44,559 bases of DNA, taken from sequence record PP920553.1; one strand, given 5' to 3'. Under the pieces are notes generated by a model that had not been told where the DNA came from, did no database searches, and saw only the letters and a program-made list of their open reading frames with translations. Positions 11,770-43,092 of this stretch are shown piece after piece; position 1 is the stretch's first letter; the number at the start of each line of letters is the position of its first letter. The position numbers and the translations under genes are program-made. The stretch is from Escherichia phage SM_A8.

Positions 11770-11771
11770 TG

Positions 11772-12090
11772 AAGCGGGACAGGCGGGACGTCCCGTTTTG
11801 TCCCGCCTCTGTAAAACTGCATATCTACTCACTTCCACTGCATAAACTCAAAACGGGACAAGCGGGACGTCCCGTTTTGTCACGCCCTGTAAATATGCAT
11901 ACCTATGCAGATTTCGTGCATAAACCAAACGGGACAAAAAGCGGGACAAACAAGGGGCGGGACAAAGCGGGACAGCACCCCAGTCCCGCCAGTGCTGCCG
12001 CGGGGTTTAGCCGATCGGGACAGGCGGGACAAAGCCCAGTCTTTCAGACTAGACGGGGGTCAATGGCCCCCCTCGTCTGAGACTGAATAA
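11772..12090. repeat. GCGGGACA repeat array region, including 173-bp element copy A (11918-12090)
   Basis: at least 10 direct CGGGACA/CGGGACG copies plus inverted GTCCCGCC copies; two ~80-bp tandem units (11772-11917) then a 173-bp element ending in a GC-rich hairpin; colinear copy at 39640-39812. Confidence 0.7.
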
Positions 12091-12153
12091 GGTTTGTTTT
12101 GAAATCGCTGATACAATATCCATCGGCAACTGCATAAAAAAGGGGACTGCATA

Positions 12154-26418: not shown

Positions 26419-26523
26419 GGTCGGTGTCTATCGCATAAAGTGGGATCTTATCGCCTTTTCTGATGACGCGTTGCACGCGCTTTGATTCCTCGGCGCTAAG
26501 CGGGCGCCCAACCGGACACCCTC

Positions 26524-26552
26524 AATATAATGCAACCAATATGATTATGCAA
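26524..26552 (-). promoter_or_regulatory. sigma70-like promoter upstream of Dam gene
   Basis: minus-sense TTGCAT-N17-TATATT built from two GCAACCAA copies (26532-26539, 26549-26556). Confidence 0.4.
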
Positions 26553-26557
26553 CCAAT

Positions 26558-26881: not shown

Positions 26882-27588
26882 TTTAAATTTTCCTCGTTAA
26901 CCGCTATCGCGAAGCCGCGCGGGGTGAGTGAGCGGATTAATTTTGTACGAGCGGATTTACCACCGAGGCGACTATACTGCTTCGAGTACCCTTTTTCAAC
27001 GAAAACAGGTTTCTTCTCGGGCATACGGAAGCCGTTTCCAGTCCATAAGCAGGTCAGCTTCGGATATGAATCGCGGGCGTTGATGTATTCAGGGAAGAGC
27101 GGGTGTACGTCATCCTCTGGCAGATATCCGCCATACTCCCACGGGTCAAACGAGTGGTCCGGCTTACGCCACTGGGTGGAAAGCACGCTGCGCGGATTCT
27201 CAATCATATATGGCACTTCGAAGAAATCACCCAGGTAAGCTGCGATCTTCGCGGTGCGCACCGCCTTAAGCTGGAAGGCAGGGTCGCGGGCGCGTTTGCG
27301 CGGGAAAGCTGGCGCACCGCTAACCGCCAGATCCGTACACGGCGGGAATGCGTAAATGATATCCGGCGTGCCGAAATCGCCATTCATCGCGCGATCCACG
27401 AAGTCCAGGTCGATAAACTCATTACGATAGCGAATGCCGCGGCCATAGATCCGGTAGTCCAGGTAAGACCCGTGATCGGCTTCGGAGTAGTTGAAGCAAT
27501 AACACTTATGCCCCATCTCGGCAGCACGCTCAATCATCAAGCCGCTGCCGTCAAACAATGACCAGATTGTCATTTTAGCAATAGTCAT
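26878..27588 (-). CDS. cytosine-C5 methyltransferase-like protein (short)
   Basis: motif I-like LFDGSGL, motif IV-like FPPCTDLAVSG (PC motif), motif VI-like ENP; only 236 aa so the target recognition region may be minimal. Confidence 0.5.
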   Translation of the reverse strand: MTIAKMTIWSLFDGSGLMIERAAEMGHKCYCFNYSEADHGSYLDYRIYGRGIRYRNEFIDLDFVDRAMNGDFGTPDIIYAFPPCTDLAVSGAPAFPRKRARDPAFQLKAVRTAKIAAYLGDFFEVPYMIENPRSVLSTQWRKPDHSFDPWEYGGYLPEDDVHPLFPEYINARDSYPKLTCLWTGNGFRMPEKKPVFVEKGYSKQYSRLGGKSARTKLIRSLTPRGFAIAVNEENLK

Positions 27589-29009: not shown

Positions 29010-29013
29010 TTCT

Positions 29014-29232
29014 TTATTCCGCCTTTTTCCAGACTTCGGTTTCACTGTTCCAGTTCCTTTTTGTGGCGTCGTAGTTGGTGCGGTGACCGATGTGCACACC
29101 CGTCGCCCGGAAGCTCTTAAATTTTTGCCAGCATACCGTCAACGGCAGCGGGTCATTCAGTCCCGCAATAAACCATACGCGATCGCCTGGTTTACATTCG
29201 CCCAGCTTGGTGAGTCGGTAATGTTCTTTCAT
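29014..29232 (-). CDS. hypothetical protein
   Basis: ATG 29232 with GGGAG RBS; stop 4 nt upstream of helicase start. Confidence 0.45.
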   Translation of the reverse strand: MKEHYRLTKLGECKPGDRVWFIAGLNDPLPLTVCWQKFKSFRATGVHIGHRTNYDATKRNWNSETEVWKKAE

Positions 29233-29275
29233 CGTCATGTCTCCCAAAAATGGCGGGACAAGCCCGCCGTATTGA

Positions 29276-29449
29276 TTATTCTTGTTCTGCGCGATAGCGG
29301 CGCTGCCGTTCGCGCTCTTTCTTATTGCGGCACGATTTGCACTCAGCCCGATGACCGTCTGGACTTCGCGCAGTCTTACCGGTGTATTTGTGGAACTGGG
29401 ACAGCGGCTTGATGCAGCCGCAATTACTACAACGTTTTTCTTCAATCAT
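29276..29449 (-). CDS. small zinc-ribbon protein
   Basis: 57 aa with CxxC ... CxxC (CSNCGC ... CKSC); GAGGA RBS. Confidence 0.45.
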   Translation of the reverse strand: MIEEKRCSNCGCIKPLSQFHKYTGKTARSPDGHRAECKSCRNKKERERQRRYRAEQE

Positions 29450-29489
29450 TTCTAAAATCCTCGGTAGTGCTATCCGGCACACTATACCG

Positions 29490-29768
29490 CTACGCGACCA
29501 ATTCAGCAACCAATAAATCACAGTCGGCTATGTTGTCGATAACGCGAACGTCAGCACCGCGGCGGGCCATTCGCTCGTGCTCACGTACCTGGTGCGGCTT
29601 CGGTTTTCCTCCGGGGCGCTTCACTTCGACGAACACTATTTTGCCGTTGATGATAATAATCAGGTCGGGCGCACCTGCGCGCCCCTCCCATGCCAGTTTT
29701 CGGCAGAATCCGCCTACCTCTTTCACCCGTCGCATCAGGTGATTTTGCACCTTGCCTTCTGGTGTCAT
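29490..29768 (-). CDS. VRR-NUC domain nuclease
   Basis: PD-(D/E)XK pattern: GAPDLIIII ... EVKRPGGK ... Q; ATGA-coupled to upstream HNH gene. Confidence 0.6.
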   Translation of the reverse strand: MTPEGKVQNHLMRRVKEVGGFCRKLAWEGRAGAPDLIIIINGKIVFVEVKRPGGKPKPHQVREHERMARRGADVRVIDNIADCDLLVAELVA

Positions 29769-30367
29769 TGTCGGCTTTTCCTTACGGCAGCGATGGCAGG
29801 TCCGATAAACTTCTTCATTTCGTCCGGGGTAAACCGGTCCCCGCGGGCTATGTTGCACTCTACGCAGCACGGCACGCAGTTATCTTTCGTATGGCCTACT
29901 GCGTTGTCGAGTCGGTCCGCGCCATTGTCGCCGGTGAATCCGCAGTATGCGCATGGTTGAGAAGTAAGGCGTAGCACGTCCTCGGTGGTTAGGTCGGTGT
30001 TTAACCCCTTCCTTTCGTCCGCCTTACGGTACTGAAAGAGCTTATAGTAAGCTCGGATCTCTGGTGTCCGGCGGTTGTACTCACGGCGGGACTTATTAGA
30101 GCACGACCGGCATTCTTTACAAATGTGTGACTGGCTTGCCCTGTTTCCGGGCCGGAAGTTTTCCGGCGTAAGCGGCTTGCGTTCCCCGCACTGACGGCAC
30201 GTTACGATCTCCCCGGTATACTCTCGCCATACTTCGCGCGGCGGCGCTCCTCTTTCCTTATCTCGTCTCTCTTTCTTATACGACGCCATGCATTTGGCGC
30301 ACCACGACTGACCCTTGTTGAAAGCGGACTCGTCTTTATCCGTATTACAACGCCCACAATGTTTCAT
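29765..30367 (-). CDS. HNH endonuclease with N-terminal zinc-ribbon repeats
   Basis: several CxxC pairs, then C-terminal HNH motif DRLDNAVGHTKDNCVPCCVECNIARG. Confidence 0.6.
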   Translation of the reverse strand: MKHCGRCNTDKDESAFNKGQSWCAKCMASYKKERRDKERGAPPREVWREYTGEIVTCRQCGERKPLTPENFRPGNRASQSHICKECRSCSNKSRREYNRRTPEIRAYYKLFQYRKADERKGLNTDLTTEDVLRLTSQPCAYCGFTGDNGADRLDNAVGHTKDNCVPCCVECNIARGDRFTPDEMKKFIGPAIAAVRKSRQ

Positions 30368-30434
30368 ATACACCCCCGAAAAAGAAAACGCCAGACAATA
30401 TTGCCCGACGTTTCCGCTAAAAGCAACATTTCCG

Positions 30435-32726
30435 CTACTTGCGGTATCGATACATACAATCACCTTCGGCGGCAAGTGGGAAGCCTTTCGCCCAAATAGG
30501 CAGGTCGCACATCAGCGCGCAAAGCTCCTCTGTCGTGTAGTCGTCGGTGTCCGGCACTTCTGTGATCAATTCATCATGCACCGATAGAACGATTTCATAG
30601 CCCGCAGCTTCAACGCCAGGCATTGACCAGGCGAGAATATCACGGCACAACGCCTGTACTATGTTCTCCGTCAGTTTGCCGCCGTAGGTATACTGGAAGC
30701 CCCACTGGCGCGTCGTCTGATTCTCGCCCTGATATTTAATGCGTGTGCTGGTGCGCTTCTTGCCGGTGTCTTCGTCAATCTCGGTCGTGACAGACAGCGC
30801 GATGCCCGGGTAGCTCATGATGCGCCCCGACGGCAACTCAATTTTCAACCACCACCCCGCGGCGTTCGGGTCGTCGCGCTCCTCGTCAAAGGTTGGGTCG
30901 TGCTTCGCCTTCGTACGGACAATCTTGAGCGCTTTTCTACCGTCCGGGCGAACGTTCGCACCAGCCCAGTATGCTTTGCCCGGATTGCGGATTGCACACA
31001 ACACCGCGTCCTCAAGCTCGGCCCAAAATGCTACCGTCTTCGGGTGAGCCTCACGCCACATACGTTTGATCGCGTCACAAGTCAGCCATACGTTTTTCGG
31101 CAGTATGTATGTTGGACGCTCGTCTTTCTTGCCTGGCTTCGGCGGGCGTTTCGCTTCGTTAATACGAGCGTATTCATAACCGCGTTTCGCCGCCGCCCAA
31201 ATGTGATCGGGGAATGTGCCCTTCATCACGTCCGCCATAGTGTAAAGGTCGAGGCCCAGGTTTTTAGCGAACTGCAAGAACGCCGCGACTCCGCCACCAT
31301 AGCCCAGTCCCAATTCGCACGCCTTACCGATCTGGCGTAAGTCCTTGCGGTTGGCTTTAATGTAGTCCGGGTCCAGGCCGAACATCTTACCGGCAGTCTC
31401 ACAATAGATATCGCGACCGGCCATAAACACCATTAGCGCGGTTTTCTCGCCCGCGATCCAGGCAAGTCCACGCCCTTCCACGTTGGAGAAGTCCGCTACG
31501 ACAAACTTCTTACCCTTAGCCGGAATAATGCACCCGCGAACGGTCGAGGCCGTTAACTTCGATATGTCATACGCCCAGTGTGCAGTCCCGCGTAACAGGG
31601 AGTTGATGCCGTTGGTGAGCATGTGCGACCGCACCCAATAAGAAACGTCGCTCTCGCCATCACGGCGCTTAATCTTCCCTTCGTGGTCGTCGCTATACTC
31701 GCCGCGTGCCAGGTTTTGCGGCTGGAAGCCCTTACCGGCCCAGCGTAGCGTGCGCTTTGCCCCACCATACTGAAGACAACCACGGCGGCGACCATCGGCG
31801 GACAGGCCATTGACAAGCGGATTGTATTTAGTAGATGCCGTTGATGACGCACCGAGGCGCATTTCGATAAGCGCTTTGCCTTCGTCGGGGAAATCCGGGT
31901 CTTCAAGCAGGTCGTTAAGTGTGGATTTCTGCGCGTTGTGGATCGTGAACGCCGGGGCGATATCACGCAGGATTGGCAGGAAGTCATTGCCGGTCAGCTT
32001 ACCGCCAAATCGCTCCCAGGCTTCTTCCTTCAATTCTTCCTTATGCGCCTGCACCGCTTTGATCGCGGCGTTCGCCAGGTCAACGTCCACATAGAAGCCG
32101 CGGTCGTTGATCAACTGGTCGATAAGCAGGATTTCATCTTCCTTCGGAGTATTACCCCAGTCCGGTATGCGCCAGTAGACTTCACGCATTGCGATAATAT
32201 CCAGCGCGGCATAGCGCAGAAATTTGGCCCACTCTTCTGGGTGAGTCTCGCGAGTGTAGCGGCGGATTTTGTAGGTCTTAGGGGTAGGCTTACAGAATCG
32301 TTTAATCAGCGCCTTGCCTGCCTTATCCTTCGCGTGCTCTGCGTCAACGCCCAGCACCTGGCACTGCATATCGAGGCTGCCGGGGAGAGCGTGGCGAAAG
32401 GCCATAATCATGGTGTCTTCGATCTGGCTTACCGGCAGGTCAATACCCCACTTCTCGCGAATGACCAGGCGGTCAAACAGGAGGCCGTTAGCCATCACTA
32501 TTTTTGCTTTCTTGCGGGATACCCTGCGGAGCGCCTTGCGCAGTTCACGCGGCATTGTTGGGGACTCGGTGCAATCCCATGTCTGCACGCGGCCCTCATC
32601 GATGGCGTAGGTGCAAATCATAATCTCGGTGGTTGGGTGCTCTGCGTAGGCATATGCGCCCACTTTCTTCAGATCCACCCCGCTAAATGTCTCGGTATCG
32701 AGAAAAAGTCGTTCGAAGTCTTTCAT
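30435..32726 (-). CDS. family A DNA polymerase (Pol I-like) with 3-5 exonuclease domain
   Basis: Exo I motif FLDTETFSG, O-helix-like RQIGKACELGLGYGGG, motif C SVHDE; 763 aa. Confidence 0.85.
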   Translation of the reverse strand: MKDFERLFLDTETFSGVDLKKVGAYAYAEHPTTEIMICTYAIDEGRVQTWDCTESPTMPRELRKALRRVSRKKAKIVMANGLLFDRLVIREKWGIDLPVSQIEDTMIMAFRHALPGSLDMQCQVLGVDAEHAKDKAGKALIKRFCKPTPKTYKIRRYTRETHPEEWAKFLRYAALDIIAMREVYWRIPDWGNTPKEDEILLIDQLINDRGFYVDVDLANAAIKAVQAHKEELKEEAWERFGGKLTGNDFLPILRDIAPAFTIHNAQKSTLNDLLEDPDFPDEGKALIEMRLGASSTASTKYNPLVNGLSADGRRRGCLQYGGAKRTLRWAGKGFQPQNLARGEYSDDHEGKIKRRDGESDVSYWVRSHMLTNGINSLLRGTAHWAYDISKLTASTVRGCIIPAKGKKFVVADFSNVEGRGLAWIAGEKTALMVFMAGRDIYCETAGKMFGLDPDYIKANRKDLRQIGKACELGLGYGGGVAAFLQFAKNLGLDLYTMADVMKGTFPDHIWAAAKRGYEYARINEAKRPPKPGKKDERPTYILPKNVWLTCDAIKRMWREAHPKTVAFWAELEDAVLCAIRNPGKAYWAGANVRPDGRKALKIVRTKAKHDPTFDEERDDPNAAGWWLKIELPSGRIMSYPGIALSVTTEIDEDTGKKRTSTRIKYQGENQTTRQWGFQYTYGGKLTENIVQALCRDILAWSMPGVEAAGYEIVLSVHDELITEVPDTDDYTTEELCALMCDLPIWAKGFPLAAEGDCMYRYRK

Positions 32727-32893
32727 TGCTTTATCCTCACTACGGCGTCAGCGCTGCCGATCATGGAGAAGATACCGTCGGAAAGGGTTATCTCCTCGCC
32801 GTTGTTACGAACCTCGGCAACGGTGAAATACTCGCCCAGCAGTTTAGACCATACCTGCATTCCGACTTTTACTTCGCTGGCTTTAATGCGCAT
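32723..32893 (-). CDS. small hypothetical protein coupled to DNA polymerase
   Basis: 56-aa ORF (MRIKASEVKVGMQVWSKLLGEY...) not in the ORF track; its stop overlaps the polymerase ATG (ATGA). Confidence 0.4.
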   Translation of the reverse strand: MRIKASEVKVGMQVWSKLLGEYFTVAEVRNNGEEITLSDGIFSMIGSADAVVRIKQ

Positions 32894-32951
32894 TTTTCAT
32901 TGTCCTATTAAAAAGCCCGCATTAAGCGGGCTTGAATAGTGGGCTTTGCCC

Positions 32952-33734
32952 TTAACGGCGGCGACGTTTACGTGGTGCTTCGTCTTCGTCGTCGTCCTCA
33001 TCTTCGTCATCGCGTGGCTTACGACGTTTGCGAGGTTTTTCATCTTCCTCATCGTCGTCGTCATCGCGGCGCTTGGATTTCTTGGACTTGCGCGGCTTGT
33101 CATCTTCATCATCGTCATCACGACGTTTTGACTTTTTGGACTTGCGCGGTGCTTCGTCTTCGTCGTCGTTGTCCAGGTCTTCATCGGAGCAAGAAGACCC
33201 GCCACCTCCGAAGGCTTCGCCGTCTTCACGGAATCGCAGACCCAGCAAGCCAGCACCGAGTCCCTTGCCGTTGGTATTGTTCCACGCCCAAATATCCAGG
33301 GACACATTGCAATAACAACCGGAGTAGATCTCCTGGCCTTCAATCTCGTCGCCGTCGATGGTCAGACCTTGTTCAGTCTGCTTCTCGCCGAGTGACGTTT
33401 GAATGATTGGTTGTTTGAACGATTTGGCGTTGATGTACAACATGCCTTCAAATTCTTCGGTTACTTCGTCACGCTCGTCACCGTCGCGAACTGCGCATTC
33501 CTTAGAATCCTGGGCGTAGTGGCGGTCCATCCACTTATCAGCATTCTTCTCGGATTTCAGCTTGTCGGTGAGCACTGCGCGCGCTGCCGCTTCCACTTTG
33601 TCCACCTGCGGATCTTCTTTATCAAGAAGAATCACTGCACGGTATGCCGGTTTTTGTCCATCCTGTTTAGGGGTATCACGTTCCCAAATTTTAAGGAAAC
33701 ATACGCGCACATTTTTCAGGTTGACTTTAGCCAT
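32952..33734 (-). CDS. hypothetical protein with repetitive charged C-terminal tail (possible ssDNA-binding protein)
   Basis: ATG 33734 with GAGGA RBS; N-terminus MAKVNLKNVRVCF; C-terminal alternating poly-D/E and PRKSKKSKRR blocks from tandem DNA repeats. Confidence 0.5.
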   Translation of the reverse strand: MAKVNLKNVRVCFLKIWERDTPKQDGQKPAYRAVILLDKEDPQVDKVEAAARAVLTDKLKSEKNADKWMDRHYAQDSKECAVRDGDERDEVTEEFEGMLYINAKSFKQPIIQTSLGEKQTEQGLTIDGDEIEGQEIYSGCYCNVSLDIWAWNNTNGKGLGAGLLGLRFREDGEAFGGGGSSCSDEDLDNDDEDEAPRKSKKSKRRDDDDEDDKPRKSKKSKRRDDDDDEEDEKPRKRRKPRDDEDEDDDEDEAPRKRRRR

Positions 33735-33798
33735 TTTCCAATTCCTCATTTTCACATATATCGGGGTTATTATGAGCCACCCCGTTCGGCTTGGTTGC

Positions 33799-33827
33799 TA
33801 ATCTACTTGGTTGCGCCTGATCGGTCA
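33799..33827 (-). promoter_or_regulatory. sigma70-like promoter for SSB-like gene
   Basis: minus-sense TTGACC-N17-TAGATT with GCAACCAA copies in the spacer and just after the -10. Confidence 0.45.
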
Positions 33828-34067
33828 AGCATTTTCATTAAAAAGATTTCTGGTCACGTAGTTGGTAGCGTTCTCGATCCAGCTTAACGGCGGGCGGTCG
33901 ATGTTCTTCTCCACCCAGTCGACGGCAGCGTCACTATATCCGTTGTCAAGCCAGCGGGTCGGATGGCGAATCATCCACGCCACCATTAACACGCCTTGCA
34001 CGCAATGCAGGATAAAGCCCAGCGCTCCGAGCAAAAACATCAATAAGATTGCGAATACTTTATTCAT
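33825..34067 (-). CDS. small membrane protein
   Basis: 80 aa with N-terminal hydrophobic segment AILLMFLLGALGFILHCVQGVLMVAWM. Confidence 0.45.
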   Translation of the reverse strand: MNKVFAILLMFLLGALGFILHCVQGVLMVAWMIRHPTRWLDNGYSDAAVDWVEKNIDRPPLSWIENATNYVTRNLFNENA

Positions 34068-35490
34068 TGCTTAAGTCCTCGTCAGTAGCTACAGACCACG
34101 CAGGGCGCGGGTCGTCAATTGGTGCTAATACCGGTTTAGCCGGTGCGCGCGTGATTTTATCACACAGCTTCGCCCACACTTTCGGCTTCTCGTCCTTCAG
34201 TACCTTCTCGGCATCCGTAGGACTGAGCAATGTTTCTTTGTACATCACATCGCGCTTGATCCGGGCCTTCGTGAAGATTTCTATCACTTCTCTCTCGTCC
34301 GCCCACTTCCGGATCCCTTCCTTACCGGCAACCATCTTGAGGCCCAGCGATTCGCCATCCCCCGCCATTACCGCTTTGAATACCGCGGACTCGATAGCTT
34401 TGATGTGCTGGCGCATTGCGTCCAGGCCTTCATAAGCCTTGCGCAGTTCTGCGGCGGTCATAGCGCCGGGGGCCGCTTCTTTCTTGCCACGCTTCGCACG
34501 TCGGGCCGCCTTCCGGGCTTCGCGGGCCATATTGCGGTCGTGATTGGCGCATTCTTCCTCGGTCGCCACGCTCACGTCGTCGCCCAGGTCTTCGTCGGTT
34601 GCCGTTGGAGGTGTCATCGTGTCGATTGCGGCCTTAGCGCGGGCACTACACTGATCCGCAAATCGACACCACTGGCACGCATCAACGCTGGGCCGGAAGT
34701 CTGCGCGGGTGAGTCCCTTCTTGCCTCGGGAATACGCCTCCAGTGCGGCAATAGCGCGCTTGGATGCAAACTTCGCGAATATCTCCAGCGCTTCTACCGA
34801 AATATCCCACTCCGACGCCCCGCCGCAATACGGCTGGAAGATAACCAGGCGAACGGTCGTAATGTCGTACATAGTTTGCAGCTTGCGTAGCAGGCCGAGC
34901 GCGTACAACATAAGCTGTTTGTTTTCTTTCGCCTCGACCTTATGCCGCCCGGTCTTCAGGTCGCCAACAATCAGCATGTACGTTCCATCGGTCTTTTTCA
35001 TGACCATGACCATATCGGCGGTACCGAACGTTTTAATCCTGTTGCCGTCGATCTCGTAGCCTGAGTGAAGGACGCGGGTCAGATCGGCGCGCATCTCAAG
35101 CTGGACAAACTCTGCCACTTCGAGGAGCGGTCGCCAGTGGTCGATGTACGCGTCGCACTGTTTCACCATATCGTCGTTGACAAGTACGCCGCCTTTCGGT
35201 GCTTTCGGGTGTGCCTTTACTGGCCCCTTTCCTTCGTTCTCGACGTAACACCCTTTATACGTCTTTGCGGTTATCAGCTTTTCACCGGCGATAATGCGGT
35301 TTAGCACGACTTCAGATACGGTGTGCATACTCGTACCGTTAATCGCGGCTTGCCCGGATTCGTTCGGGATACCTTGTTCTACCACCAGGGCGGCGGGGCA
35401 ACCCATCCATTTTTTAGCACCGGACGGGCCGAGTAATGAGTGTTCCGTGTTGCTACCGGATTGCGTTTTACGTTTTGGTTTAATCGCCAT
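34060..35490 (-). CDS. RecB/Cas4-like exonuclease (PD-(D/E)XK nuclease with Cys cluster)
   Basis: 476 aa; cysteine cluster CQWCRFADQC typical of Cas4/AddB-type nucleases; charged C-terminal region. Confidence 0.6.
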   Translation of the reverse strand: MAIKPKRKTQSGSNTEHSLLGPSGAKKWMGCPAALVVEQGIPNESGQAAINGTSMHTVSEVVLNRIIAGEKLITAKTYKGCYVENEGKGPVKAHPKAPKGGVLVNDDMVKQCDAYIDHWRPLLEVAEFVQLEMRADLTRVLHSGYEIDGNRIKTFGTADMVMVMKKTDGTYMLIVGDLKTGRHKVEAKENKQLMLYALGLLRKLQTMYDITTVRLVIFQPYCGGASEWDISVEALEIFAKFASKRAIAALEAYSRGKKGLTRADFRPSVDACQWCRFADQCSARAKAAIDTMTPPTATDEDLGDDVSVATEEECANHDRNMAREARKAARRAKRGKKEAAPGAMTAAELRKAYEGLDAMRQHIKAIESAVFKAVMAGDGESLGLKMVAGKEGIRKWADEREVIEIFTKARIKRDVMYKETLLSPTDAEKVLKDEKPKVWAKLCDKITRAPAKPVLAPIDDPRPAWSVATDEDLSNE

Positions 35491-35669
35491 TATTCCACCC
35501 GTGTAAACTGGACAATTACATATTTCACATTAGCCAGGCCCGCTTTTTCGACTCGGCGCTTAACTTCATTTTGCGCGTCCACAAAGCAATTGCTTGCGTT
35601 GGTGTTTTCAACAATAAAAGAAGTGTGATCGTTTAATTCGTGGCAAGTTGCCATGACGAAGAATTTCAT
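35490..35669 (-). CDS. hypothetical protein
   Basis: 59-aa product from ATG 35669 within track ORF 35490..35750. Confidence 0.4.
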   Translation of the reverse strand: MKFFVMATCHELNDHTSFIVENTNASNCFVDAQNEVKRRVEKAGLANVKYVIVQFTRVE

Positions 35670-35920
35670 TATTTTGTCTCCCAGCGGTCGATTGTTTTTG
35701 CTTCGGATGCAACTGCGAAGCGAACATATTCCAGATTTGAATCCGCCCAAATATAAAAGTCGGGATTAATAAAGGTGGTGCGCTTGATTTGCGCGGGGGT
35801 GTTGCGGCGTTTGTCTATTACGGCAACGCGCGATTGAAAGCTGCCGATGCGTTCGAATAGCCAATAATAAGGGCGTTGGTCGCGTGAATCCACCGCCTCG
35901 ATTAGCGTGAAGCGTGCCAT
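35669..35920 (-). CDS. hypothetical protein
   Basis: 83-aa ORF; no motif recognised. Confidence 0.45.
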   Translation of the reverse strand: MARFTLIEAVDSRDQRPYYWLFERIGSFQSRVAVIDKRRNTPAQIKRTTFINPDFYIWADSNLEYVRFAVASEAKTIDRWETK

Positions 35921-35930
35921 TGTCTCGTCC

Positions 35931-35960
35931 TCTAAAAAGAGGCCCGCTAATCTGCGGGCC
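35931..35960 (-). terminator. intrinsic terminator after first leftward early gene
   Basis: minus-sense GGCCCGCAGATTAGCGGGCC followed by TCTTTTT. Confidence 0.5.
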
Positions 35961-35968
35961 GGAATATA

Positions 35969-36484
35969 TTAATCTTCCAGTTCGAAATAGGTTTCGACGA
36001 TTTCTTTTAGCTCTTTGTGGAAGTCTTCGACGTCGTCATCTTCCAGCTTGGCGATTGATTTGATCTCGAACGATTCCAGCAGGTCGTCGAATTCGTCGTT
36101 CGCGTCATCATCATCACCGCCTGCAATAATAGCGGCATACTGCTTGATTTCGTCGCGCATTTCGACCAGCGGATCGGCATCTTTCTTACCTTTGCCTTTC
36201 GCCGGTGCTTTCTTAGCCTTAGCCGGTTTTTCGTCTTCGGCATCGTCGTCGTCATCTTCTACGACTTCTTTTTTAGCCTTACCTTTCGCCGGTGCTTTTT
36301 TAGATTTAGCCGGTTTTTCGTCTTCAGCTTCATCGTCGTCATCTTCGACAACTTCTTTTTTGGCCTTAGACGGCTTCTTGTCTTCCTGCTTACCAACGGC
36401 AGCGCCAACGGTTTCATAATGCTTTGCAATGGTTTCCAGTGCTACTACGCCGCGAGTGATCAGGTTTACGATTTGCTCAAACAT
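35969..36484 (-). CDS. acidic/lysine-rich repeat protein (first gene of leftward early operon)
   Basis: ATG 36484 with GGAGAT RBS; two 29-aa repeats (KKEVVEDDDDEAEDEKPAKSKKAPAKGKA) from an 87-bp tandem DNA repeat; poly-D C-terminal region. Confidence 0.55.
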   Translation of the reverse strand: MFEQIVNLITRGVVALETIAKHYETVGAAVGKQEDKKPSKAKKEVVEDDDDEAEDEKPAKSKKAPAKGKAKKEVVEDDDDDAEDEKPAKAKKAPAKGKGKKDADPLVEMRDEIKQYAAIIAGGDDDDANDEFDDLLESFEIKSIAKLEDDDVEDFHKELKEIVETYFELED

Positions 36485-36679
36485 GGTATATCTCCGATTG
36501 GTTAAGTTTAGGTGTCGGCAGTTAACTTCGTCGGTGGCCTTAACATATTGCCAGGTTACGCGTTCTCCCGTTCGGGTAGTGGACCTGGTTATATAATCAC
36601 GGTTGGGAATCCTGACACTTCGATCCGGCCCCTGCGTTGCCCCTCTCCAGTTTGCGTCCTGCATCCTGTCGACGGAGTG

Positions 36680-36708
36680 AATATTAGATTGGTTGCAGAA
36701 GGGAGTCA
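36680..36708 (-). promoter_or_regulatory. leftward early promoter (P2)
   Basis: minus-sense TTGACT-N17-TAATAT with a GCAACCAA copy in the spacer; about 190 nt upstream of first leftward gene. Confidence 0.5.
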
Positions 36709-36719
36709 ACAACTAATTT

Positions 36720-36754
36720 CAAAAAAAAAGCGCCGAGGCAAAATGCACCGGCGC
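36720..36754 (-). terminator. rho-independent terminator on minus strand
   Basis: minus-sense GCGCCG-13 nt loop-CGGCGC followed by T10 (plus strand A10 at 36720-36729). Confidence 0.55.
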
Positions 36755-36778
36755 TAACCAATAAGAGACAATGAGACG
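36720..36778 (-). ncRNA. candidate small RNA (~55 nt) from P1 to the terminator
   Basis: predicted transcript starts ~7 nt after the -10 and ends at the T10 tract; no ORF or RBS inside. Confidence 0.25.
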
Positions 36779-36784
36779 GGAATT

Positions 36785-36813
36785 ATTATTACACGCGTGC
36801 GCGCCCGTTTCAA
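36785..36813 (-). promoter_or_regulatory. leftward promoter (P1) directly upstream of the minus-strand terminator
   Basis: minus-sense TTGAAA-N17-AATAAT. Confidence 0.45.
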
Positions 36814-36825
36814 TATCCAAAGGAC

Positions 36826-36854
36826 TTGACACCTTGTGGTTTTAGGTGTAGTTT
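36826..36854 (+). promoter_or_regulatory. rightward promoter for HTH gene and primase
   Basis: TTGACA-N17-TAGTTT about 30 nt upstream of ATG 36886; divergent from P1. Confidence 0.45.
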
Positions 36855-36885
36855 CATTGGTCATTAACCAACAGGAGACTGAATT

Positions 36886-37215
36886 ATGAATATCAAAGAA
36901 GCAATTGAAGTGTTATCTAATGCAATCCGCGGCGAAGCGGGTAAATCCTGGTATTACACAAATGCGGTGGATACTCTGTTATTTGAAGTGTCCAGATTAT
37001 CGCGTGCTGAGAAGGAGCTTACCGCGAAGCTAGAATTGCTCAACGGCACGGCAGCAAGCAAGCTGCAAAAACACAATGAAGAAATGGAAGAATACAAAAA
37101 ACAGGTTATCCGTCTACGTGAGGAAGGTAAATCCTGGGCGATGATCGCCGAGTTGACCGGAATTAATCAGAGCACAGTGCGCTCCTGGGTACGCAATAAT
37201 AAAACTTCAAAGTAA
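36886..37215 (+). CDS. HTH DNA-binding protein (putative transcriptional regulator)
   Basis: 109 aa; C-terminal helix-turn-helix KSWAMIAELTGINQSTVRSWVRN; first gene of rightward operon. Confidence 0.6.
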   Translation: MNIKEAIEVLSNAIRGEAGKSWYYTNAVDTLLFEVSRLSRAEKELTAKLELLNGTAASKLQKHNEEMEEYKKQVIRLREEGKSWAMIAELTGINQSTVRSWVRNNKTSK

Positions 37216-37225: not shown

Positions 37226-39490
37226 ATGAGCTTGATTAAATTCGCTGTAACACGACCCGCTAAAAAAGGCGAAAAAGCCAGGGCGGAAAACTTCCAGATG
37301 ACGACCGAAGAGTTTTTCGAATTTATCAATGATGCGAAAGAAATCTCCTCGGTGCATATCAACAAAACGGAAGATAAAGCGGAGTATGCGCGCCGCAAGC
37401 GTAAGGCTGATGGGATTGTGGCTTATACCAGTGACGGCTTACGCCGCAAGACCAGTGCGGTGGACCGCTCGATCCTGTTCTTCGATATTGACCGTACCGA
37501 CACCCGCACCCTACGCCGCTGCCGTAAGGCTTTCATCGACGCGGGGCTGGAGCACGTATTTCACACCACAACCGGCGACCGCCACCCGCTGAAAGGCGGC
37601 ACGCGTTGCGCTCGTTTCCTGGTGCTCACTGACAAGCCTGTACCGGCGGAAGACCTGGGCCGCGTCCAGTATGCACTATTACACCAACTGGGCCTGTCAG
37701 ATGTGGACTTCGACGATTGCACGAAAGACACAAACCGCCTTATGTACCTGCCTCACCAGCAATCGGTTGTTAAGTGTCACTACGGCAAACGTGCCCGCGT
37801 CCGTCGTCTGCTTCGCCTGGCTGATAAGCTGGGGGTGGAAAAAGAGGAAGTACGCCGCGAGCTTACCCAGGGCGACGACGCAGTGGCAGACGGCATTCTG
37901 GACTGGTGCTTCCAGGCAGGATTCGAACCGCTGTCGTCCGGTCGTGGTTATGAAGTGCCATGCCCGAACGAACACCTGCACAGTGGTGAAGGGTCCACCG
38001 CTATCATGGTTAAGGATGGCGAGATCCGTTTCAAGTGTATGCACACCGGCAACGAGTGTTGCTCGGAACTGAACAGACACCAGCACCTGGCGCTACGTCT
38101 CATCGGGATACCGGACCACCTGAACGTCGAGCCGCACAACATGTCCCGTAAGCAAATCGCCGCCATCCTCCCAGGGCTGGACGACGAGGAAGTCGAATCC
38201 TTATATGAACATATTGTGGATGCGGTTGGCGACGGCGAAGAATACGGCGTGTGCACCGATGCGGATCTGGATAACGAGCCGGTTGCGCTGTTCAGTAAGC
38301 ACGACCCGATCATAGAAGGCCTGGTCAACTTCAAATCGACCTGGTATATGGCTGGCGAGTCGAACATCGGTAAATCGTTCTACGTGCTTGGGCAGATGGG
38401 CGCGGTTGCCGCTGGTATTCCGTTCGGCGGTGCGAAGGTCGTCCAGTCTCATTGCTTCTATTTCGACGCGGAAGGTGGCGAAGCCTCTAACCAGCGCAAA
38501 GAAGCATTGCAGATTAAATATGAGCACGACCTGGACAAGCTGCACATTATAGACCTGCAGTCACGCGGCTGGGATATCACCAGCAAATCAGGCTTGCGCG
38601 AAGTTATCAGCTTTATCAACCGCACCGCTAACGGCGAACCGGTTGGCCTGGTGGCGTTCGACTCACTCAACCAGACTGTTGCGTTGCGGTCCGCGGATGC
38701 TAAACCGTTCGACGAGAACAACGCCAGCGATATGGGTGAAGTGGTCAAAGCGCTGAAGGCCATCGCGGAAAATACAGGTGGCAGTGCGGGCGTCATTCAC
38801 CACCCGGCGAAAGGTGCAAACGGCAGCAGATCCCCCCGCGGGTCCGGCGCGCTGCATGGTGCTGTCGATTCCGCGTTCTTCCTGGAGCAACCGGACGACA
38901 ACCAGCCCGGACAATTGAACCTGTATCATGAGAAGGCACGTAACGGCATTAAGCAAGCGCCGCGCGGCTTCGTCCTGCTCAAGTGCAAGGTTAAGGTGGA
39001 TCTCCGCAAGTCCGAAGCGTTCGAAGCCCACCAGTCCACCAGCACCGGGCCGGACTTCGGCGATGTGGTTGCCGGTTGGGACGTCAAGCCAATTGCCTCC
39101 ACGCCACGCGACGAGACTCTTTACCTCGTACCGGTCGCCCTGGCACCGTTCGCCATCGAACAGGCGAAGGCTGCGGGCAAGGCCGCAGTTAAGGAGGAGA
39201 ACGCCGCAGGCCCGCGCAACGAAAAAGAGAAAGTGCTTTATGCGGCGCTGGAAAAACTGATGGAAGATAACCCGGACCATACCGGATTCAGTAAATCGGC
39301 AATTGTCCGCCAGGCTGGACTAGCGAAAGGTGGCACATCGACGAAGGCAATCGACGATATGGTCGAGCGCGGCGTACTAGGTTTTTACACAGACCCACAC
39401 ACCGGGGCCATCTATGGGTCGTCTAATATCGTCATCAAAACGAATATACCCATCACGCTTTCGGCGACCGATGACGACCTGAAAGATTAA
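37226..39490 (+). CDS. DNA primase / RepA-DnaB-like helicase fusion protein
   Basis: 754 aa; zinc-binding cluster CPNEHLHSGE...CMHTGNECC; Walker A GESNIGKS, Walker B-like LVAFDSLNQ, VIHHPAKG motif. Confidence 0.7.
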   Translation: MSLIKFAVTRPAKKGEKARAENFQMTTEEFFEFINDAKEISSVHINKTEDKAEYARRKRKADGIVAYTSDGLRRKTSAVDRSILFFDIDRTDTRTLRRCRKAFIDAGLEHVFHTTTGDRHPLKGGTRCARFLVLTDKPVPAEDLGRVQYALLHQLGLSDVDFDDCTKDTNRLMYLPHQQSVVKCHYGKRARVRRLLRLADKLGVEKEEVRRELTQGDDAVADGILDWCFQAGFEPLSSGRGYEVPCPNEHLHSGEGSTAIMVKDGEIRFKCMHTGNECCSELNRHQHLALRLIGIPDHLNVEPHNMSRKQIAAILPGLDDEEVESLYEHIVDAVGDGEEYGVCTDADLDNEPVALFSKHDPIIEGLVNFKSTWYMAGESNIGKSFYVLGQMGAVAAGIPFGGAKVVQSHCFYFDAEGGEASNQRKEALQIKYEHDLDKLHIIDLQSRGWDITSKSGLREVISFINRTANGEPVGLVAFDSLNQTVALRSADAKPFDENNASDMGEVVKALKAIAENTGGSAGVIHHPAKGANGSRSPRGSGALHGAVDSAFFLEQPDDNQPGQLNLYHEKARNGIKQAPRGFVLLKCKVKVDLRKSEAFEAHQSTSTGPDFGDVVAGWDVKPIASTPRDETLYLVPVALAPFAIEQAKAAGKAAVKEENAAGPRNEKEKVLYAALEKLMEDNPDHTGFSKSAIVRQAGLAKGGTSTKAIDDMVERGVLGFYTDPHTGAIYGSSNIVIKTNIPITLSATDDDLKD

Positions 39491-39600
39491 TTTGTGCGCG
39501 CATTGGTTGCCGATATGGGAATTCCCATATCGCTAAAAGATTAAATTTTGCGCGCATTGGTTGCCATTTAGGGTGTTTTTATCCCGCCGCATTGGTTGCC
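39484..39600. repeat. iteron-like repeats and perfect 20-bp palindrome downstream of primase (origin-like region)
   Basis: three CGCATTGGTTGCC copies (39499-39511, 39553-39565, 39588-39600), inverted copy at 39872-39884; palindrome GATATGGGAATTCCCATATC at 39512-39531; AT-rich stretch 39601-39650. Confidence 0.5.
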
Positions 39601-39639
39601 GTGTAGTGTAAATATATTGAATAGTTATGCAGTTTTATT

Positions 39640-39812
39640 GCATAAAGTAAGCGGGACAAAAAGCGGGACAAACAAGGGGCGGGACAAAGCGGGACAGCAC
39701 CCCTGTCCCGCCACGGATGGCGCGGCTTCCAGAGGAGCGGGACAGGCGGGACAAACCCCAGTCTTTCAGACTAGACGGGGGTCAGTGGCCCCCCTCGTCT
39801 GAGACTGAATAA
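39640..39812. repeat. 173-bp repeat element copy B with GCGGGACA array and GC-rich hairpin
   Basis: colinear with 11918-12090, no indels; CGGGACA copies at identical offsets (12, 24, 40, 50, 98, 107); central ~26 nt diverged. Confidence 0.7.
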
Positions 39813-39967
39813 AATCCGGGGATTGCAAAATACACGGCAGCATGATGCTAAGTGCGGTCGTCGATGAACTAGGCAACCAATGCGGGTTGTATTATGCTGA
39901 GTGAAAAATGCGGTTTGCAGTTGCAGCAGATAGCGATCAACTTTTTCATGCGCGTGATTAATATTGG

Positions 39968-39996
39968 TTGCGTTCACCCCGGCACCATGCTATATT
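39968..39996 (+). promoter_or_regulatory. rightward early promoter
   Basis: TTGCGT-N17-TATATT; TTGGTTGC copies overlap the -35 and follow the -10; 21-mer TATATTGGTTGCACACCAACA matches the minus strand at 6187-6207. Confidence 0.5.
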
Positions 39997-40024
39997 GGTT
40001 GCACACCAACATGAGGACTGAACA

Positions 40025-40330
40025 ATGAGAGCACTAATCTGGAATTACACAATGGCGGTGGCAAAGCTGTACGAAGCGAAGCACACAAACGGCAACGCAG
40101 ACGACGCGCGCCAGGTTGTCATCCTGGCCCAGCAGGGAATCCTGGACGCGTTCGACGATATGTTTGCCAGCCTGGACGAACTGGAACCGCTGCGCGTGGC
40201 AATCTGCGAATATGCGATGGCATTTGCCCGTGAACGCCTGGCGTATCGCTTCGGGATCGGCGAGACGGCAGTGACAAACGTTGCCCGGATTAAAGCCCAG
40301 CGTGAGCTATTCGCCCAGCTTGCGAAATAA
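40025..40330 (+). CDS. hypothetical early protein
   Basis: 101-aa ORF with GAGGA RBS downstream of promoter. Confidence 0.5.
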   Translation: MRALIWNYTMAVAKLYEAKHTNGNADDARQVVILAQQGILDAFDDMFASLDELEPLRVAICEYAMAFARERLAYRFGIGETAVTNVARIKAQRELFAQLAK

Positions 40331-42779: not shown

Positions 42780-43092
42780 ATGTTAAAAAGCATTCTTGAT
42801 CATAACGCCGACGCGCTCGCCGCGCTGGCTAAAACCGAAGACCCAGGCGCTCGCCGCGCTGGCTAAAACCGAAGACCCAGGCGCTCGCGCCATTATCGCG
42901 GACACTATCAGTCATGCTGGCGTATTTGACGCGAAGCTGCCTAGCCCGCCGCCACAGGCGCTCGCCGCGCTGGCTAAAACCGAAGACCCAGGCGCTCGCG
43001 CCATTATCGCGGACACTATCAGTCATGCTGGCGTATTTGACGCGAAGCTGCCTAGCCCGCCGCCACAGGAAGAATCTGACCCAGTGACGTAA
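42780..43092 (+). pseudogene. repeat-protein gene with apparent frameshift inside tandem repeats
   Basis: ATG 42780 with GAGGAG RBS reads 28 codons to TAA 42864-42866; the rest (two 111-bp repeat units ending at TAA 43090-43092) continues in the +1 frame; one 36-bp sub-repeat copy is 2 nt short. Confidence 0.4.

What the first reader, a model, noticed from the sequence alone, without database searches (positions are those of the whole stretch)
39484..39812. Origin-like cluster after the primase gene: iterons, 20-bp palindrome, AT-rich tract and second 173-bp element
Directly after the primase stop (39490) there are three CGCATTGGTTGCC copies, two of them inside a 28-bp direct repeat (AGATTAA-TTTGTGCGCGCATTGGTTGCC), with an inverted copy at 39872-39884. 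Between them is a perfect 20-bp palindrome centred on GAATTC (39512-39531). An AT-rich 50 bp follows (39601-39650), then copy B of the 173-bp GCGGGACA element. Iterons next to an AT-rich stretch and the primase gene fit a replication origin; alternatively this is a regulatory hub for the rightward early promoter at 39968.
Basis: partly seen in the sequence, partly recalled or inferred. Interest (0 to 1): 0.7.

Follow-up and report, generated by a model that had tools for sequence, protein, structure and literature searches.

The report
Probable phage replication origin module

Summary
The parts are not equally conserved. The first CGCATTGGTTGCC copy and the GAATTC palindrome lie in a 54-bp insertion missing from 9 of 15 close relatives. 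The core ATTGGTTGC ("W") occurs 14 times genome-wide (0.41 expected), mostly over promoters.

The conserved unit is: W sites, a TGAATAGTTATGCA box in a 26%-GC tract, seven GCGGGACA repeats ("R"), a long hairpin, ACACGGCAGCA, then W sites and the next promoter. The same layout recurs in phages whose primase-helicase is only 37-49% identical. There the R word differs by lineage (GGGGGAGA, CGGACAA, TCCGACA, GGGATAA, TTGCGAGT, and others).

The primase-helicase is predicted to have an AEP-fold primase domain, a RepA-like helicase and a C-terminal winged-helix domain. In one pair of relatives, that winged-helix domain and the module have been exchanged together as one cassette.

Best reading (about 0.55): an iteron-type origin served by its own primase-helicase. 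It works like phage P4 alpha/ori-crr or RSF1010 oriV. The W sites are accessory or regulatory. No replication data exist for it, so this is a new variant of a known kind.

The parts
37226..39490 (+). Primase-helicase gene (754 aa). Predicted domains: N-terminal AEP-fold primase, a conserved Cys/His motif, a RepA-like (AAA_25) helicase, and a C-terminal winged helix.
39218..39460 (+). Part of the gene encoding the C-terminal winged-helix domain (about residues 665-745). This is the proposed origin-binding domain.
39479..39532 (.). 54-bp insertion/duplication polymorphism. It contains W copy 1 (39499-39511) and the 22-bp GAATTC palindrome (39511-39532).
   Evidence: Absent from 9 of 15 close relatives in alignment A1.
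39553..39565 (+). W copy 2 (CGCATTGGTTGCC).
   Evidence: Present in 14 of 15 relatives.
39588..39600 (+). W copy 3 (CGCATTGGTTGCC).
   Evidence: Invariant in all 15 relatives.
39601..39650 (.). AT-rich tract (GC 0.26), a candidate unwinding region. It contains the conserved box TGAATAGTTATGCA (39618-39631) and the palindrome TTATGCA-N7-TGCATAA (39625-39645).
   Evidence: Composition. The box is conserved in relatives with 37-46% identical primase-helicase, often as two boxes 21 bp apart. The 7-nt spacer is reverse-complemented in 9 of 15 relatives.
39651..39753 (.). R array, the proposed iterons. GCGGGACA at 39651, 39663, 39679 and 39689 (+), 39704 (-), then 39737 and 39746 (+).
   Evidence: 13 of the 14 genome copies lie in this element and its copy at 11.8-12.0 kb. 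The CGGGAC core is invariant in relatives. The same layout with different words occurs in other lineages.
39759..39807 (.). Long imperfect hairpin.
   Evidence: DNA fold -13.4 kcal/mol, z -3.95. Stems are invariant and the loop varies in close relatives. Hairpins of different sequence sit at the same place in seven other lineages, z -2.0 to -4.4.
39832..39842 (+). ACACGGCAGCA, a short motif 3' of the hairpin that is conserved in every lineage examined. It is a candidate priming or recognition site (inference).
   Evidence: ACGGCAGC is invariant in A1. ACGGCA[GA]CA or CGGCAGC is found after the hairpin in L022, L024, L027, L033, L037, L049, L148, L160, L161, L164, L170, L177, L178, L180, L181, L021 and L025.
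39872..39884 (-). Inverted W copy (GGCAACCAATGCG on the + strand).
   Evidence: Invariant in all 15 relatives.
39963..40011 (+). Promoter of the next rightward operon, with two W copies. W at 39963-39971 overlaps the -35 (TTGCGT, 39968-39973). The -10 is TATATT (39991-39996). W at 39994-40002 lies inside the 18-mer ATTGGTTGCACACCAACA, which is repeated at 6187-6204 (-).
   Evidence: Sequence; contexts; conservation. The consensus scan does not list this promoter because it matches only 8 of 12 positions.
11772..12150 (+). Second copy of the R-array/hairpin element ('copy A'), between the tail-chaperone and tape-measure genes. The core 11896-12090 is 88% identical to 39618-39812. Two extra 79-nt units lie upstream.
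   Evidence: Nearly all Dhillonvirus records show two places. It is absent from Salmonella phage GRNsp27, which has only the copy after the primase-helicase gene.

Best explanation
The region 39.49-39.96 kb is most likely the replication origin of this Dhillonvirus. It would be an iteron-type origin placed directly 3' of the gene for its own initiator.

Proposed mechanism (all steps are inferred):
1. The C-terminal winged-helix domain of the primase-helicase binds the seven GCGGGACA repeats. Four are direct, one is inverted, and two more direct copies follow.
2. The RepA-like helicase domains assemble there and open the adjacent 26%-GC tract and the hairpin-forming segment.
3. The AEP-fold primase domain primes on the exposed strands, possibly at the invariant ACACGGCAGCA.
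4. The phage-encoded DNA polymerase and its Gp2.5-like single-strand-binding protein take over.

The second copy of the element, 27.7 kb away at 11.8-12.1 kb, would be a second origin or a cis-acting partner, like crr of phage P4.

The ATTGGTTGC sites that flank the module and sit on many promoters would bind a different, more conserved factor. That factor may couple early or middle transcription to the origin. A candidate in this clade is the sigma-region-4-like HTH protein encoded at 36886-37215.

What is shown: the anatomy, its conservation, the domain folds, and the joint exchange of the winged-helix domain with the module. What is inferred: binding, unwinding, priming and origin activity.
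For: 1. Conserved position and layout. The order W sites, box, short-repeat array (direct, inverted, about 25-nt spacer, direct), hairpin, ACGGCA[GA]CA, W, promoter follows the primase-helicase gene in 15 close relatives. The same core layout is found in relatives that are 69%, 49% and 37-46% identical, including Salmonella phage GRNsp27.

2. The repeat word is lineage-specific while the layout is kept: GCGGGACA, GTGGCA, GGGGGAGA, CGGACAA, TCCGACA, GGGATAA, GGGGATR, TTGCGAGT. This is what co-evolution with a DNA-binding specificity domain would produce.

3. The protein's C-terminus is a winged helix whose best structural matches include the origin-binding domains of Orc1/Cdc6. It is the most variable part of the protein.

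4. Cassette exchange. L033 and L049 are 98% identical in protein over residues 1-653 but only 46% identical in the last 100 residues. At DNA level, identity is 91.7% up to about codon 665. There is no detectable similarity across the winged-helix region and the module. Identity returns to 87.5% exactly at the next promoter. Within repeat classes, the residues around the GG loop before helix 3 are shared even at 51-59% domain identity.

5. The first gene after the module differs among phages that share the same repeat word, so that gene is not the binder.

6. The other origin ingredients are present: a 50-bp tract at GC 0.26 and a stable, positionally conserved hairpin.

7. The repeats are confined to the elements: 13 of 14 GCGGGACA copies in the window, and 5 of 5 GGGGGAGA copies in GRNsp27.

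8. The module is not coding. Frame-shifting indels occur among close relatives.

9. Experimentally studied systems are built the same way. The P4 alpha winged helix binds the ori repeats. RSF1010 uses RepC iterons, RepA and ssi hairpins primed by RepB'. The pRN1 origin is a stem-loop 3' of its primase-helicase-winged-helix gene (PMC4234260 and PMC2777425).
Against: There are no replication data of any kind, and no paper on a Dhillonvirus origin was found.

The GC-skew minimum is at 36-37 kb, the point where the two gene blocks diverge, not at 39.6 kb. It simply follows gene orientation.

Overall winged-helix identity does not predict the repeat class. L179 is 55% identical to the window in this domain and has GTGGCA repeats. 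L177 is 56% identical and has GCGGGACA. The co-variation is therefore suggestive, not a code.

In the L018-L025 lineages, 1.4-2 kb of reverse-strand genes separate the gene from the module, and the module stays next to the downstream promoter. That fits a promoter-linked role as well as an origin.

The cassette exchange could reflect plain linkage between two conserved recombination points.

The second copy sits inside the tail-gene operon, an odd place for an origin, and GRNsp27 lacks it.

No DnaA boxes are present.
Confidence: 0.55

Rival explanations
1. The region is a transcription-control region rather than an origin. The W sites would be operators or activator sites of a phage regulator. 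The R array and hairpin would be an upstream control element, insulator or processing site for the rightward operon that starts at 39968 (small genes and lysis genes). Copy A would play the same role for the tape-measure and tail genes.
For: W occurs 14 times (0.41 expected). It lies 26-28 nt before a good -10 at 39963(+), 29506(-), 26549(-), 22292(-) and 36688(+). It overlaps the spacer, -10 or +1 at 39994(+), 6196(-) and 43159(-).

These promoters have weak -35 hexamers and are missed by the consensus scan, as activator-dependent promoters would be.

A protein similar to sigma-70 region 4 and HTH_23 is encoded just upstream.

The module always lies directly upstream of the rightward promoter, even where inserted genes separate it from the primase-helicase gene.

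Copy A is followed by a TGaTACAAT extended -10-like sequence before the tape-measure gene (sequence; my own reading).
Against: This reading does not explain why the repeat word changes with lineage, nor why it was exchanged together with the winged-helix domain of a replication enzyme.

It also does not explain the conserved AT-rich tract, hairpin and ACGGCAGCA motif.

GRNsp27 has W-type sites only around the module, not at other promoters.

The HTH_23 protein is absent from the flanks of lineages L026 and L178, which keep the same W word.

The two readings are compatible. W can be regulatory while R is the origin.
Confidence: 0.2
2. The element acts as RNA. It would be a structured 3' UTR or leader, or a small RNA, carrying GGGACA repeats and a terminal hairpin. 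It might bind or sequester an RNA-binding protein, or control mRNA stability, and is present twice in + strand operons.
For: Both copies are on the strand that is transcribed in their operons. No intrinsic terminator separates the primase-helicase gene from the module. The hairpin is stable and positionally conserved.
Against: Rfam gives no match above noise.

The 186-nt region as a whole is not unusually stable as RNA: z -1.57, and 18 of 200 shuffles fold at least as well.

No sigma-70 promoter lies in front of the element and no U-tract follows the hairpin.

The repeats occur in both orientations as dimer-like palindromes, and W flips orientation between relatives. Both fit double-stranded DNA sites.
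Confidence: 0.08
3. The 195-nt element is a selfish or recombination-prone non-coding repeat, or a packaging or recombination site, that has copied itself to two places. Its position next to the primase-helicase gene would be incidental.
For: There are two copies at 88% identity in unrelated contexts. The region carries a 54-bp indel polymorphism and an inverted spacer. Inverted W copies (39588 and 39872) bracket copy B.
Against: Copy A has no flanking W sites or other terminal inverted repeats.

The position after the primase-helicase gene is conserved across genera, with a single copy in GRNsp27.

No recombinase or transposase is linked to it. GenBank records of close relatives start at different genome positions, which suggests but does not establish circular permutation and headful packaging.
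Confidence: 0.05

Closest known systems
Phage P4 alpha protein with ori and crr
   Same: One polypeptide combines a primase, a helicase and a C-terminal winged-helix origin-binding domain. According to PMC4234260 and PMC2777425, the P4 winged helix binds the repeats at the origin and unwinding and priming follow. From memory, the P4 repeats are short octamers in both orientations, and a second, distant repeat-bearing site (crr) is needed in cis. Here there are 8-mers in both orientations and a second copy 27.7 kb away.
IncQ plasmid RSF1010 oriV with RepC, RepA and RepB'
   Different: In RSF1010 these are three separate proteins. From memory, its iterons are about 20 bp and all direct, and two ssi hairpins lie on opposite strands. 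Here there is one polypeptide, 8-mers in mixed orientation and one long hairpin. The PDB sequence match to RepA is not significant (E 0.46).
Archaeal plasmid pRN1 ORF904 and its stem-loop origin (and Bordetella phage BIP-1)
   Same: The replication protein is an AEP prim/pol plus a helicase plus a C-terminal winged helix. The origin lies directly 3' of its gene and contains a long stem-loop that is required for replication (PMC4234260).
   Different: pRN1 has an SF3 helicase and, according to that paper, no iterons. Here a repeat array accompanies the hairpin.
SaPI and PICI pri-rep-ori modules; lambdoid O protein and ori (from memory, not checked here)
   Same: Iterons and an AT-rich region lie next to or inside the initiator gene. 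The iteron sequence and the initiator's DNA-binding domain change together between elements, which defines replication specificity groups.
   Different: The initiator families are different, and those elements are temperate phages or satellites, whereas no integrase or repressor gene appears in the annotations seen for these phages. Specificity switching is only inferred for this family.
Phage T7 primary origin (tandem promoters followed by an AT-rich region; from memory)
   Same: The replication proteins resemble those of T7: a primase-helicase, an annotated DNA polymerase, and an annotated Gp2.5-like single-strand-binding protein (annotation of relatives). Repeats precede an AT-rich tract.
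   Different: The three W copies are not promoters. They have no -10 at the right distance, and their orientation flips in L177.

Membership tests
Iteron-type origin with a cis-encoded initiator | A cluster of several short identical repeats in non-coding DNA | tested here: met
   Seven GCGGGACA copies lie within 103 bp. 13 of the 14 genome copies are in the two elements, against 2.13 expected genome-wide.
Iteron-type origin with a cis-encoded initiator | An adjacent AT-rich region that could unwind | tested here: met
   GC is 0.26 at 39600-39649, against about 0.55 for the genome. Unwinding itself cannot be tested here.
Iteron-type origin with a cis-encoded initiator | An initiator that carries a sequence-specific DNA-binding domain | tested here: met
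Iteron-type origin with a cis-encoded initiator | Iteron sequence and initiator DNA-binding domain change together | tested here: inconclusive
   For: the winged-helix domain and module were exchanged as one cassette between L033 and L049, and loop/helix-3 residues are class-specific. Against: L179 and L177 are equally distant from the window in this domain but differ in repeat class.
Iteron-type origin with a cis-encoded initiator | Replication starts here, or the fragment supports replication | not testable with these tools
   This needs marker-frequency sequencing, 2D gels or a plasmid origin assay.
P4 alpha / ori-crr system | A Toprim (DnaG-type) primase and an SF3 helicase in the initiator | tested here: not met
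   The N-terminal domain has an AEP fold and the helicase is RepA-like AAA_25.
P4 alpha / ori-crr system | A second, distant site carrying the same repeats | tested here: met
   The copy at 11896-12090 is 88% identical. Whether it is required is untestable here. GRNsp27 has no second copy.
RSF1010 (IncQ) oriV / RepABC | A RepB'-type AEP primase and a RepA-type helicase | tested here: met
RSF1010 (IncQ) oriV / RepABC | About 20-bp direct iterons and two ssi hairpins on opposite strands | tested here: not met
   The repeats are 8-mers in mixed orientation, and there is a single long hairpin. The RSF1010 features themselves are taken from memory and from PMC4234260.
T7-type origin (promoters followed by an AT-rich tract) | Functional promoters immediately upstream of the AT-rich tract | tested here: not met
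   No sigma-70-like site was found at 39300-40200. W copies 1-3 have no -10 at 16-18 nt. W orientation is not conserved.
ArgR operator | Two 18-bp ARG boxes 3 bp apart that match TGAAT-W4-ATTCA | tested here: inconclusive
   The window has one box with 2 mismatches, which is at chance level (2 found, 1.25 expected). GRNsp27 and several metagenomic relatives have two boxes exactly 21 bp apart with 1-2 mismatches. The canonical operator design is from PMC6640053. A 16-of-18 match near P1 loxP did not bind ArgR (PMC2409434).
DnaA-box cluster | TTATNCACA boxes in the region | tested here: not met
   No site with 1 mismatch or fewer lies in 39491-39960. Genome-wide there are 27 against 26.6 expected.
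Any Rfam RNA family | A covariance-model match | tested here: not met
   Only noise-level matches to eukaryotic miRNA and snoRNA families, far below their gathering scores.

The most novel reading that the evidence does not exclude
The C-terminal winged helix of the primase-helicase and the adjacent repeat/hairpin module form an exchangeable 'origin-specificity cassette'. This cassette would define replication specificity groups across Dhillonvirus, the GRNsp27/FSL SP-031-like Salmonella phages (Guernseyvirinae) and many uncultured relatives. One polypeptide would combine the AEP primase, RepA helicase and initiator functions that IncQ plasmids spread over three proteins. Dhilloniruses would carry a second, crr-like copy. 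The origin would be tied to the transcription programme through the W sites, and possibly to host physiology through the ARG-box-like paired boxes.
Probability: 0.25. Interest if true: 0.75.

Novelty: new variant of a known kind. Interest (0 to 1): 0.55.

Why it matters
Dhilloniruses and their Salmonella relatives are common laboratory and therapy-candidate phages, and I found no described origin for them.

If this reading is right, it gives a defined minimal replicon of about 300 bp plus one gene. It predicts which phages can cross-replicate or interfere with one another, according to their cassette class. It also offers a compact single-protein system that recognises the origin, unwinds it and primes.

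The widespread ATTGGTTGC motif also points to an uncharacterised phage transcription regulon, with clear sites to test.

Tried and rejected
- **GC skew.** Cumulative skew peaks at about 24 kb and bottoms at 36-37 kb, exactly where gene orientation switches. It says nothing about 39.6 kb.
- **Rfam.** Only noise.
- **Promoter and terminator scan.** No promoter and no relevant terminator. The W copies after the stop codon are not promoters.
- **DnaA boxes.** None in the region and no enrichment.
- **ARG-box match in the window alone.** At chance level; kept only as a lead.
- **Coding potential.** ORFs 39596-39802 and 11769-12080 were rejected because close relatives carry 1-nt indels within the element.
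- **14-mer scan for the box in viral contigs.** Mostly chance hits; only 15 loci had the module. A two-box pattern was more specific. It also picked up unrelated phage regions with perfect DnaA-box-like TTATCCACA repeats.
- **Homologue search with the C-terminal 164 residues alone.** One hit; the full-length search was used instead.
- **XRE/Cro-type HTH homologues.** Relatives (Jerseyvirus, Kagunavirus, L019) encode one at this position. The window has none, while GRNsp27 has one upstream of its primase-helicase gene.
- **HTH_23 protein as the universal W binder.** It was found only in the Dhillonvirus-like clade.
- **Overall winged-helix identity as a predictor of repeat class.** It fails for L179 versus L177.
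- **Concerted evolution of copies A and B.** Window and HK578-like identities are all 83-94%, which is not informative.
- **Literature.** Nothing on Dhillonvirus origins or on these repeats.
Full report
**Identity of the window.** The window is a complete genome of a Dhillonvirus, the HK578-like siphophages of E. coli. The 801 bases around the finding match 158 phage records at 80-95% identity. The primase-helicase protein is 99.6% identical to that of phage vB_EcoS_PTXU06. Structural genes occupy 23-24032 on the + strand. DNA-metabolism genes occupy 24059-36712 on the - strand. A rightward block follows: a 109-aa HTH protein (36886-37215), the primase-helicase (37226-39490), the 534-bp non-coding region in question, then small genes, lysis genes and an exonuclease.

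**Check of the observation.** Every feature is real.
- CGCATTGGTTGCC lies at 39499, 39553 and 39588, with an inverted copy at 39872.
- The direct repeat holding the first two copies is 33 nt long and 91% identical.
- The palindrome is 22 bp (39511-39532).
- GC is 0.26 at 39600-39649.
- A 195-nt repeat (39618-39812) is 88% identical to 11896-12090.

Both motifs are far more frequent than chance. ATTGGTTGC occurs 14 times against 0.41 expected, and GCGGGACA 14 times against 2.13.

**What is conserved among close relatives.** I aligned 15 close relatives (A1).
- The first repeat copy and the palindrome lie in a 54-bp insertion (39479-39532). It duplicates the last four codons of the gene plus 21 downstream bases and adds a 21-nt palindromic filler. 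It is missing from 9 of the 15 relatives, and the palindrome is imperfect in several of those that carry it.
- Copy 3 and the inverted copy are invariant in all 15.
- Also invariant or nearly so are the CGGGAC cores, the hairpin stems (the loop varies), ACGGCAGC, and the promoter with its two ATTGGTTGC copies.
- Single-base indels inside the element rule out the ORFs that annotation pipelines call there.

**The ATTGGTTGC motif (W) is genome-wide.** Eight of its 14 copies lie outside the region.
- At 39963(+), 29506(-) and 26549(-) the motif starts exactly 28 nt before a good -10 hexamer. The distance is 27 nt at 22292(-) and 26 nt at 36688(+). In these cases its TTGC takes the place of the -35.
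- At 39994(+), 6196(-) and 43159(-) it overlaps the spacer, the -10 or the +1.
- The three copies after the primase-helicase stop codon have no -10 at a usable distance, and the consensus scan finds no promoter there.
- In a relative with 69% identical primase-helicase (L177), two of the upstream copies are inverted.

W therefore behaves as a protein-binding site, not as a promoter element pointing into the module. The protein encoded just upstream resembles sigma-70 region 4 and HTH_23 and is a candidate binder. However, it was found only in the Dhillonvirus-like clade, while L026 and L178 keep the same W word without it.

**A conserved module in distant relatives.** I looked downstream of the primase-helicase gene in phages whose protein is only 37-49% identical. 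These were metagenomic loci L022, L024, L027, L033, L037, L049, L054, L160, L161, L164, L170, L178, L180, L181 and L182, plus Salmonella phage GRNsp27. The same core layout recurs:
1. W-type sites (TGTTGGCTG, TGTTGGCAG, GTTGGCCGC or GTTGGTTGC), some lying inside the last codons of the gene.
2. One or two TGAATAGTTATKCA boxes, 21 bp apart when there are two (absent in some lineages, such as L178).
3. An array of a 6-8-nt word: three or four direct copies, one or two inverted, a spacer of about 25 nt, then one or two direct copies.
4. A long hairpin.
5. ACGGCA[GA]CA.
6. W again, then a sigma-70-type promoter.

The word in the array ("R") differs by lineage: GCGGGACA, GTGGCA, GGGGGAGA, CGGACAA, TCCGACA, GGGATAA, GGGGATR, TTGCGAGT. 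The hairpins also differ in sequence but are all more stable than shuffled controls (z -2.0 to -4.4).

In GRNsp27 both motif families occur only in this module, and there is no second copy near the tape-measure gene. The copy at 11.8-12.1 kb is therefore an addition specific to Dhillonvirus. L026 differs from the rest: only W-type repeats were evident in its region.

In lineages L018-L025, terminators and reverse-strand genes have been inserted after the primase-helicase gene. In L019, L021 and L025, recognisable parts of the module (R-like words, a hairpin and ACGGCAGCA) lie 1.4-2 kb further on, directly upstream of the rightward promoter.

**The protein.**
- Pfam sees only a RepA-like AAA_25 helicase core.
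- The winged helix is the most variable part of the protein: 20-30% identity where the helicase core is 50-70%.

**Link between the winged helix and the R array.** L033 and L049 are 98% identical in protein over residues 1-653 but 46% identical in the last 100 residues. At DNA level, identity is 91.7% up to about codon 665. It is undetectable across the winged-helix region and the module. It returns to 87.5% exactly at the next promoter. Their R words differ (TCCGACA versus CGGACAA).

Within an R class, the residues around the GG loop and the start of helix 3 are shared even when the domain is only 51-59% identical:
- GGT-[SN]T goes with GCGGGACA.
- GGN[SQ]RRR goes with CGGACAA.
- GGR-RRPA goes with TCCGACA.
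- GG[DG]-RY goes with the GGGGA-type words.

The gene after the module varies among phages that share the same R word, so it is not the binder.

The correlation is imperfect. L179 carries GTGGCA repeats, yet its winged helix is as close to the window's (55%) as that of L177 (56%), which keeps GCGGGACA. W, by contrast, stays the same across lineages whose winged helices are 32-55% identical. W should therefore be read by something more conserved.

**Interpretation.** The combination points most simply to a replication origin served by its own multifunctional initiator: a repeat array, a neighbouring AT-rich tract, a conserved hairpin, and a position beside the gene for a primase-helicase whose winged helix travels with the array. 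Studied systems work this way.
- The P4 alpha protein binds origin repeats through a C-terminal winged helix, then unwinds and primes.
- RSF1010 uses RepC at iterons, the RepA helicase, and the RepB' primase at exposed hairpins.
- The pRN1 origin is a stem-loop directly 3' of its primase-helicase-winged-helix gene (PMC4234260, PMC2777425).

The present protein is not a member of the P4 alpha family, because its primase and helicase types differ. In effect it combines the three IncQ functions in one chain. Binding, unwinding, priming at ACACGGCAGCA, and origin activity are all inferences.

**What remains open.** I found no experimental data on this region. GC skew is uninformative. The constant position of the module upstream of the rightward promoter and the promoter-wide spread of W keep a regulatory reading alive, and the two readings are compatible. 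The role of copy A, inside the tail-gene operon, is unexplained. The paired TGAATAGTTATKCA boxes spaced 21 bp apart resemble a canonical ArgR operator (PMC6640053). In the window, though, the single box is at chance level, and a comparable match in P1 did not bind ArgR (PMC2409434).

**Verdict.** The origin interpretation is partly supported, with the roles of the parts reassigned. This is a new variant of a known kind of origin. Confidence is about 0.55 and interest is moderate.

Noticed in passing
window 6196, 22292, 26532, 26549, 29506, 36688, 39963, 39994, 40528, 43159: ATTGGTTGC sits over core promoter elements of many operons. It starts 28 nt before the -10 at three promoters, 27 and 26 nt at two others, and overlaps the spacer, -10 or +1 at three more. 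The 18-mer ATTGGTTGCACACCAACA is identical at 39994-40011(+) and 6187-6204(-), and a similar leader follows the promoter at about 36830. This looks like a phage-wide regulon with an unknown regulator.
   Followed up: partly
window 36886-37215: A 109-aa protein directly upstream of the primase-helicase gene matches HTH_23 and Sigma70_r4_2. GenBank relatives annotate it variously as 'Gam' or 'transposase'. It is a candidate binder of ATTGGTTGC but was found only in the Dhillonvirus-like clade.
   Followed up: partly
window 39625-39645: In the palindrome TTATGCA-N7-TGCATAA, the 7-nt spacer is GTTTTAT in 5 of 15 relatives and its exact reverse complement ATAAAAC in 9 of 15. This flip is typical of hairpin-mediated template switching and suggests the site is single-stranded at times.
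   Followed up: no
window 39479-39532: A 54-bp insertion polymorphism is present in 6 of 15 relatives. It is a 33-nt duplication that includes the last four codons of the primase-helicase gene, plus a 21-nt palindromic filler containing GAATTC. Its origin is unknown.
   Followed up: partly
window 39618-39631; L148 18065-18099; L022, L024, L033, L037, L049: The box TGAATAGTTATKCA is conserved across distant lineages, usually as two boxes exactly 21 bp apart. That matches the canonical ArgR operator design (TGAAT-W4-ATTCA, two 18-bp boxes 3 bp apart). This is a lead only: the single box in the window is at chance level.
   Followed up: partly
window 11772-12150: Copy A is longer than copy B. It has two extra 79-nt units with GCGGGACGTCCCGTTTTGTCCCGC palindromes and several CTGCATAA motifs, two of them just before the tape-measure start at 12154. 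A TGaTACAAT extended -10-like sequence follows the hairpin.
   Followed up: no
L018-L025, about 1.4-2 kb downstream of their primase-helicase genes: In these lineages two intrinsic terminators and reverse-strand genes (including an XRE-type HTH in L019) are inserted between the gene and the module. L025 carries a (GGCAGCAT)x6 tandem expansion of the conserved ACGGCAGCA motif.
   Followed up: partly
L149 5260-5340 (Kagunavirus); L150 (Jerseyvirus): At the equivalent position these genera have a reverse Cro-like HTH gene and divergent promoters carrying two TGTGAATAGT sites. These share 10 bases with the box of the module, so the operator word may be related.
   Followed up: no
window 42835-43056; 22761-22886; 36175-36348: Three tandem repeats lie in other parts of the genome: 111 bp x2 at 96% identity (with a 42-nt unit x3), 63 bp x2 in the tail-fibre gene, and 87 bp x2 in an acidic/basic repeat protein.
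   Followed up: no
window about 36725-36765 (- strand): An intrinsic-terminator-like hairpin followed by a T9 run sits on the minus strand between the divergent operons. This region also has the lowest GC in the genome (0.466 over 36001-37000).
   Followed up: no
L153-L156, L162, L165, L167, L169 (unrelated viral contigs): The two-box scan also picked up two other phage families with TGAATAGTTATCCACAGG and repeated GTTATCCACA, which are perfect DnaA-box-like words. They are probably origins of unrelated phages.
   Followed up: no
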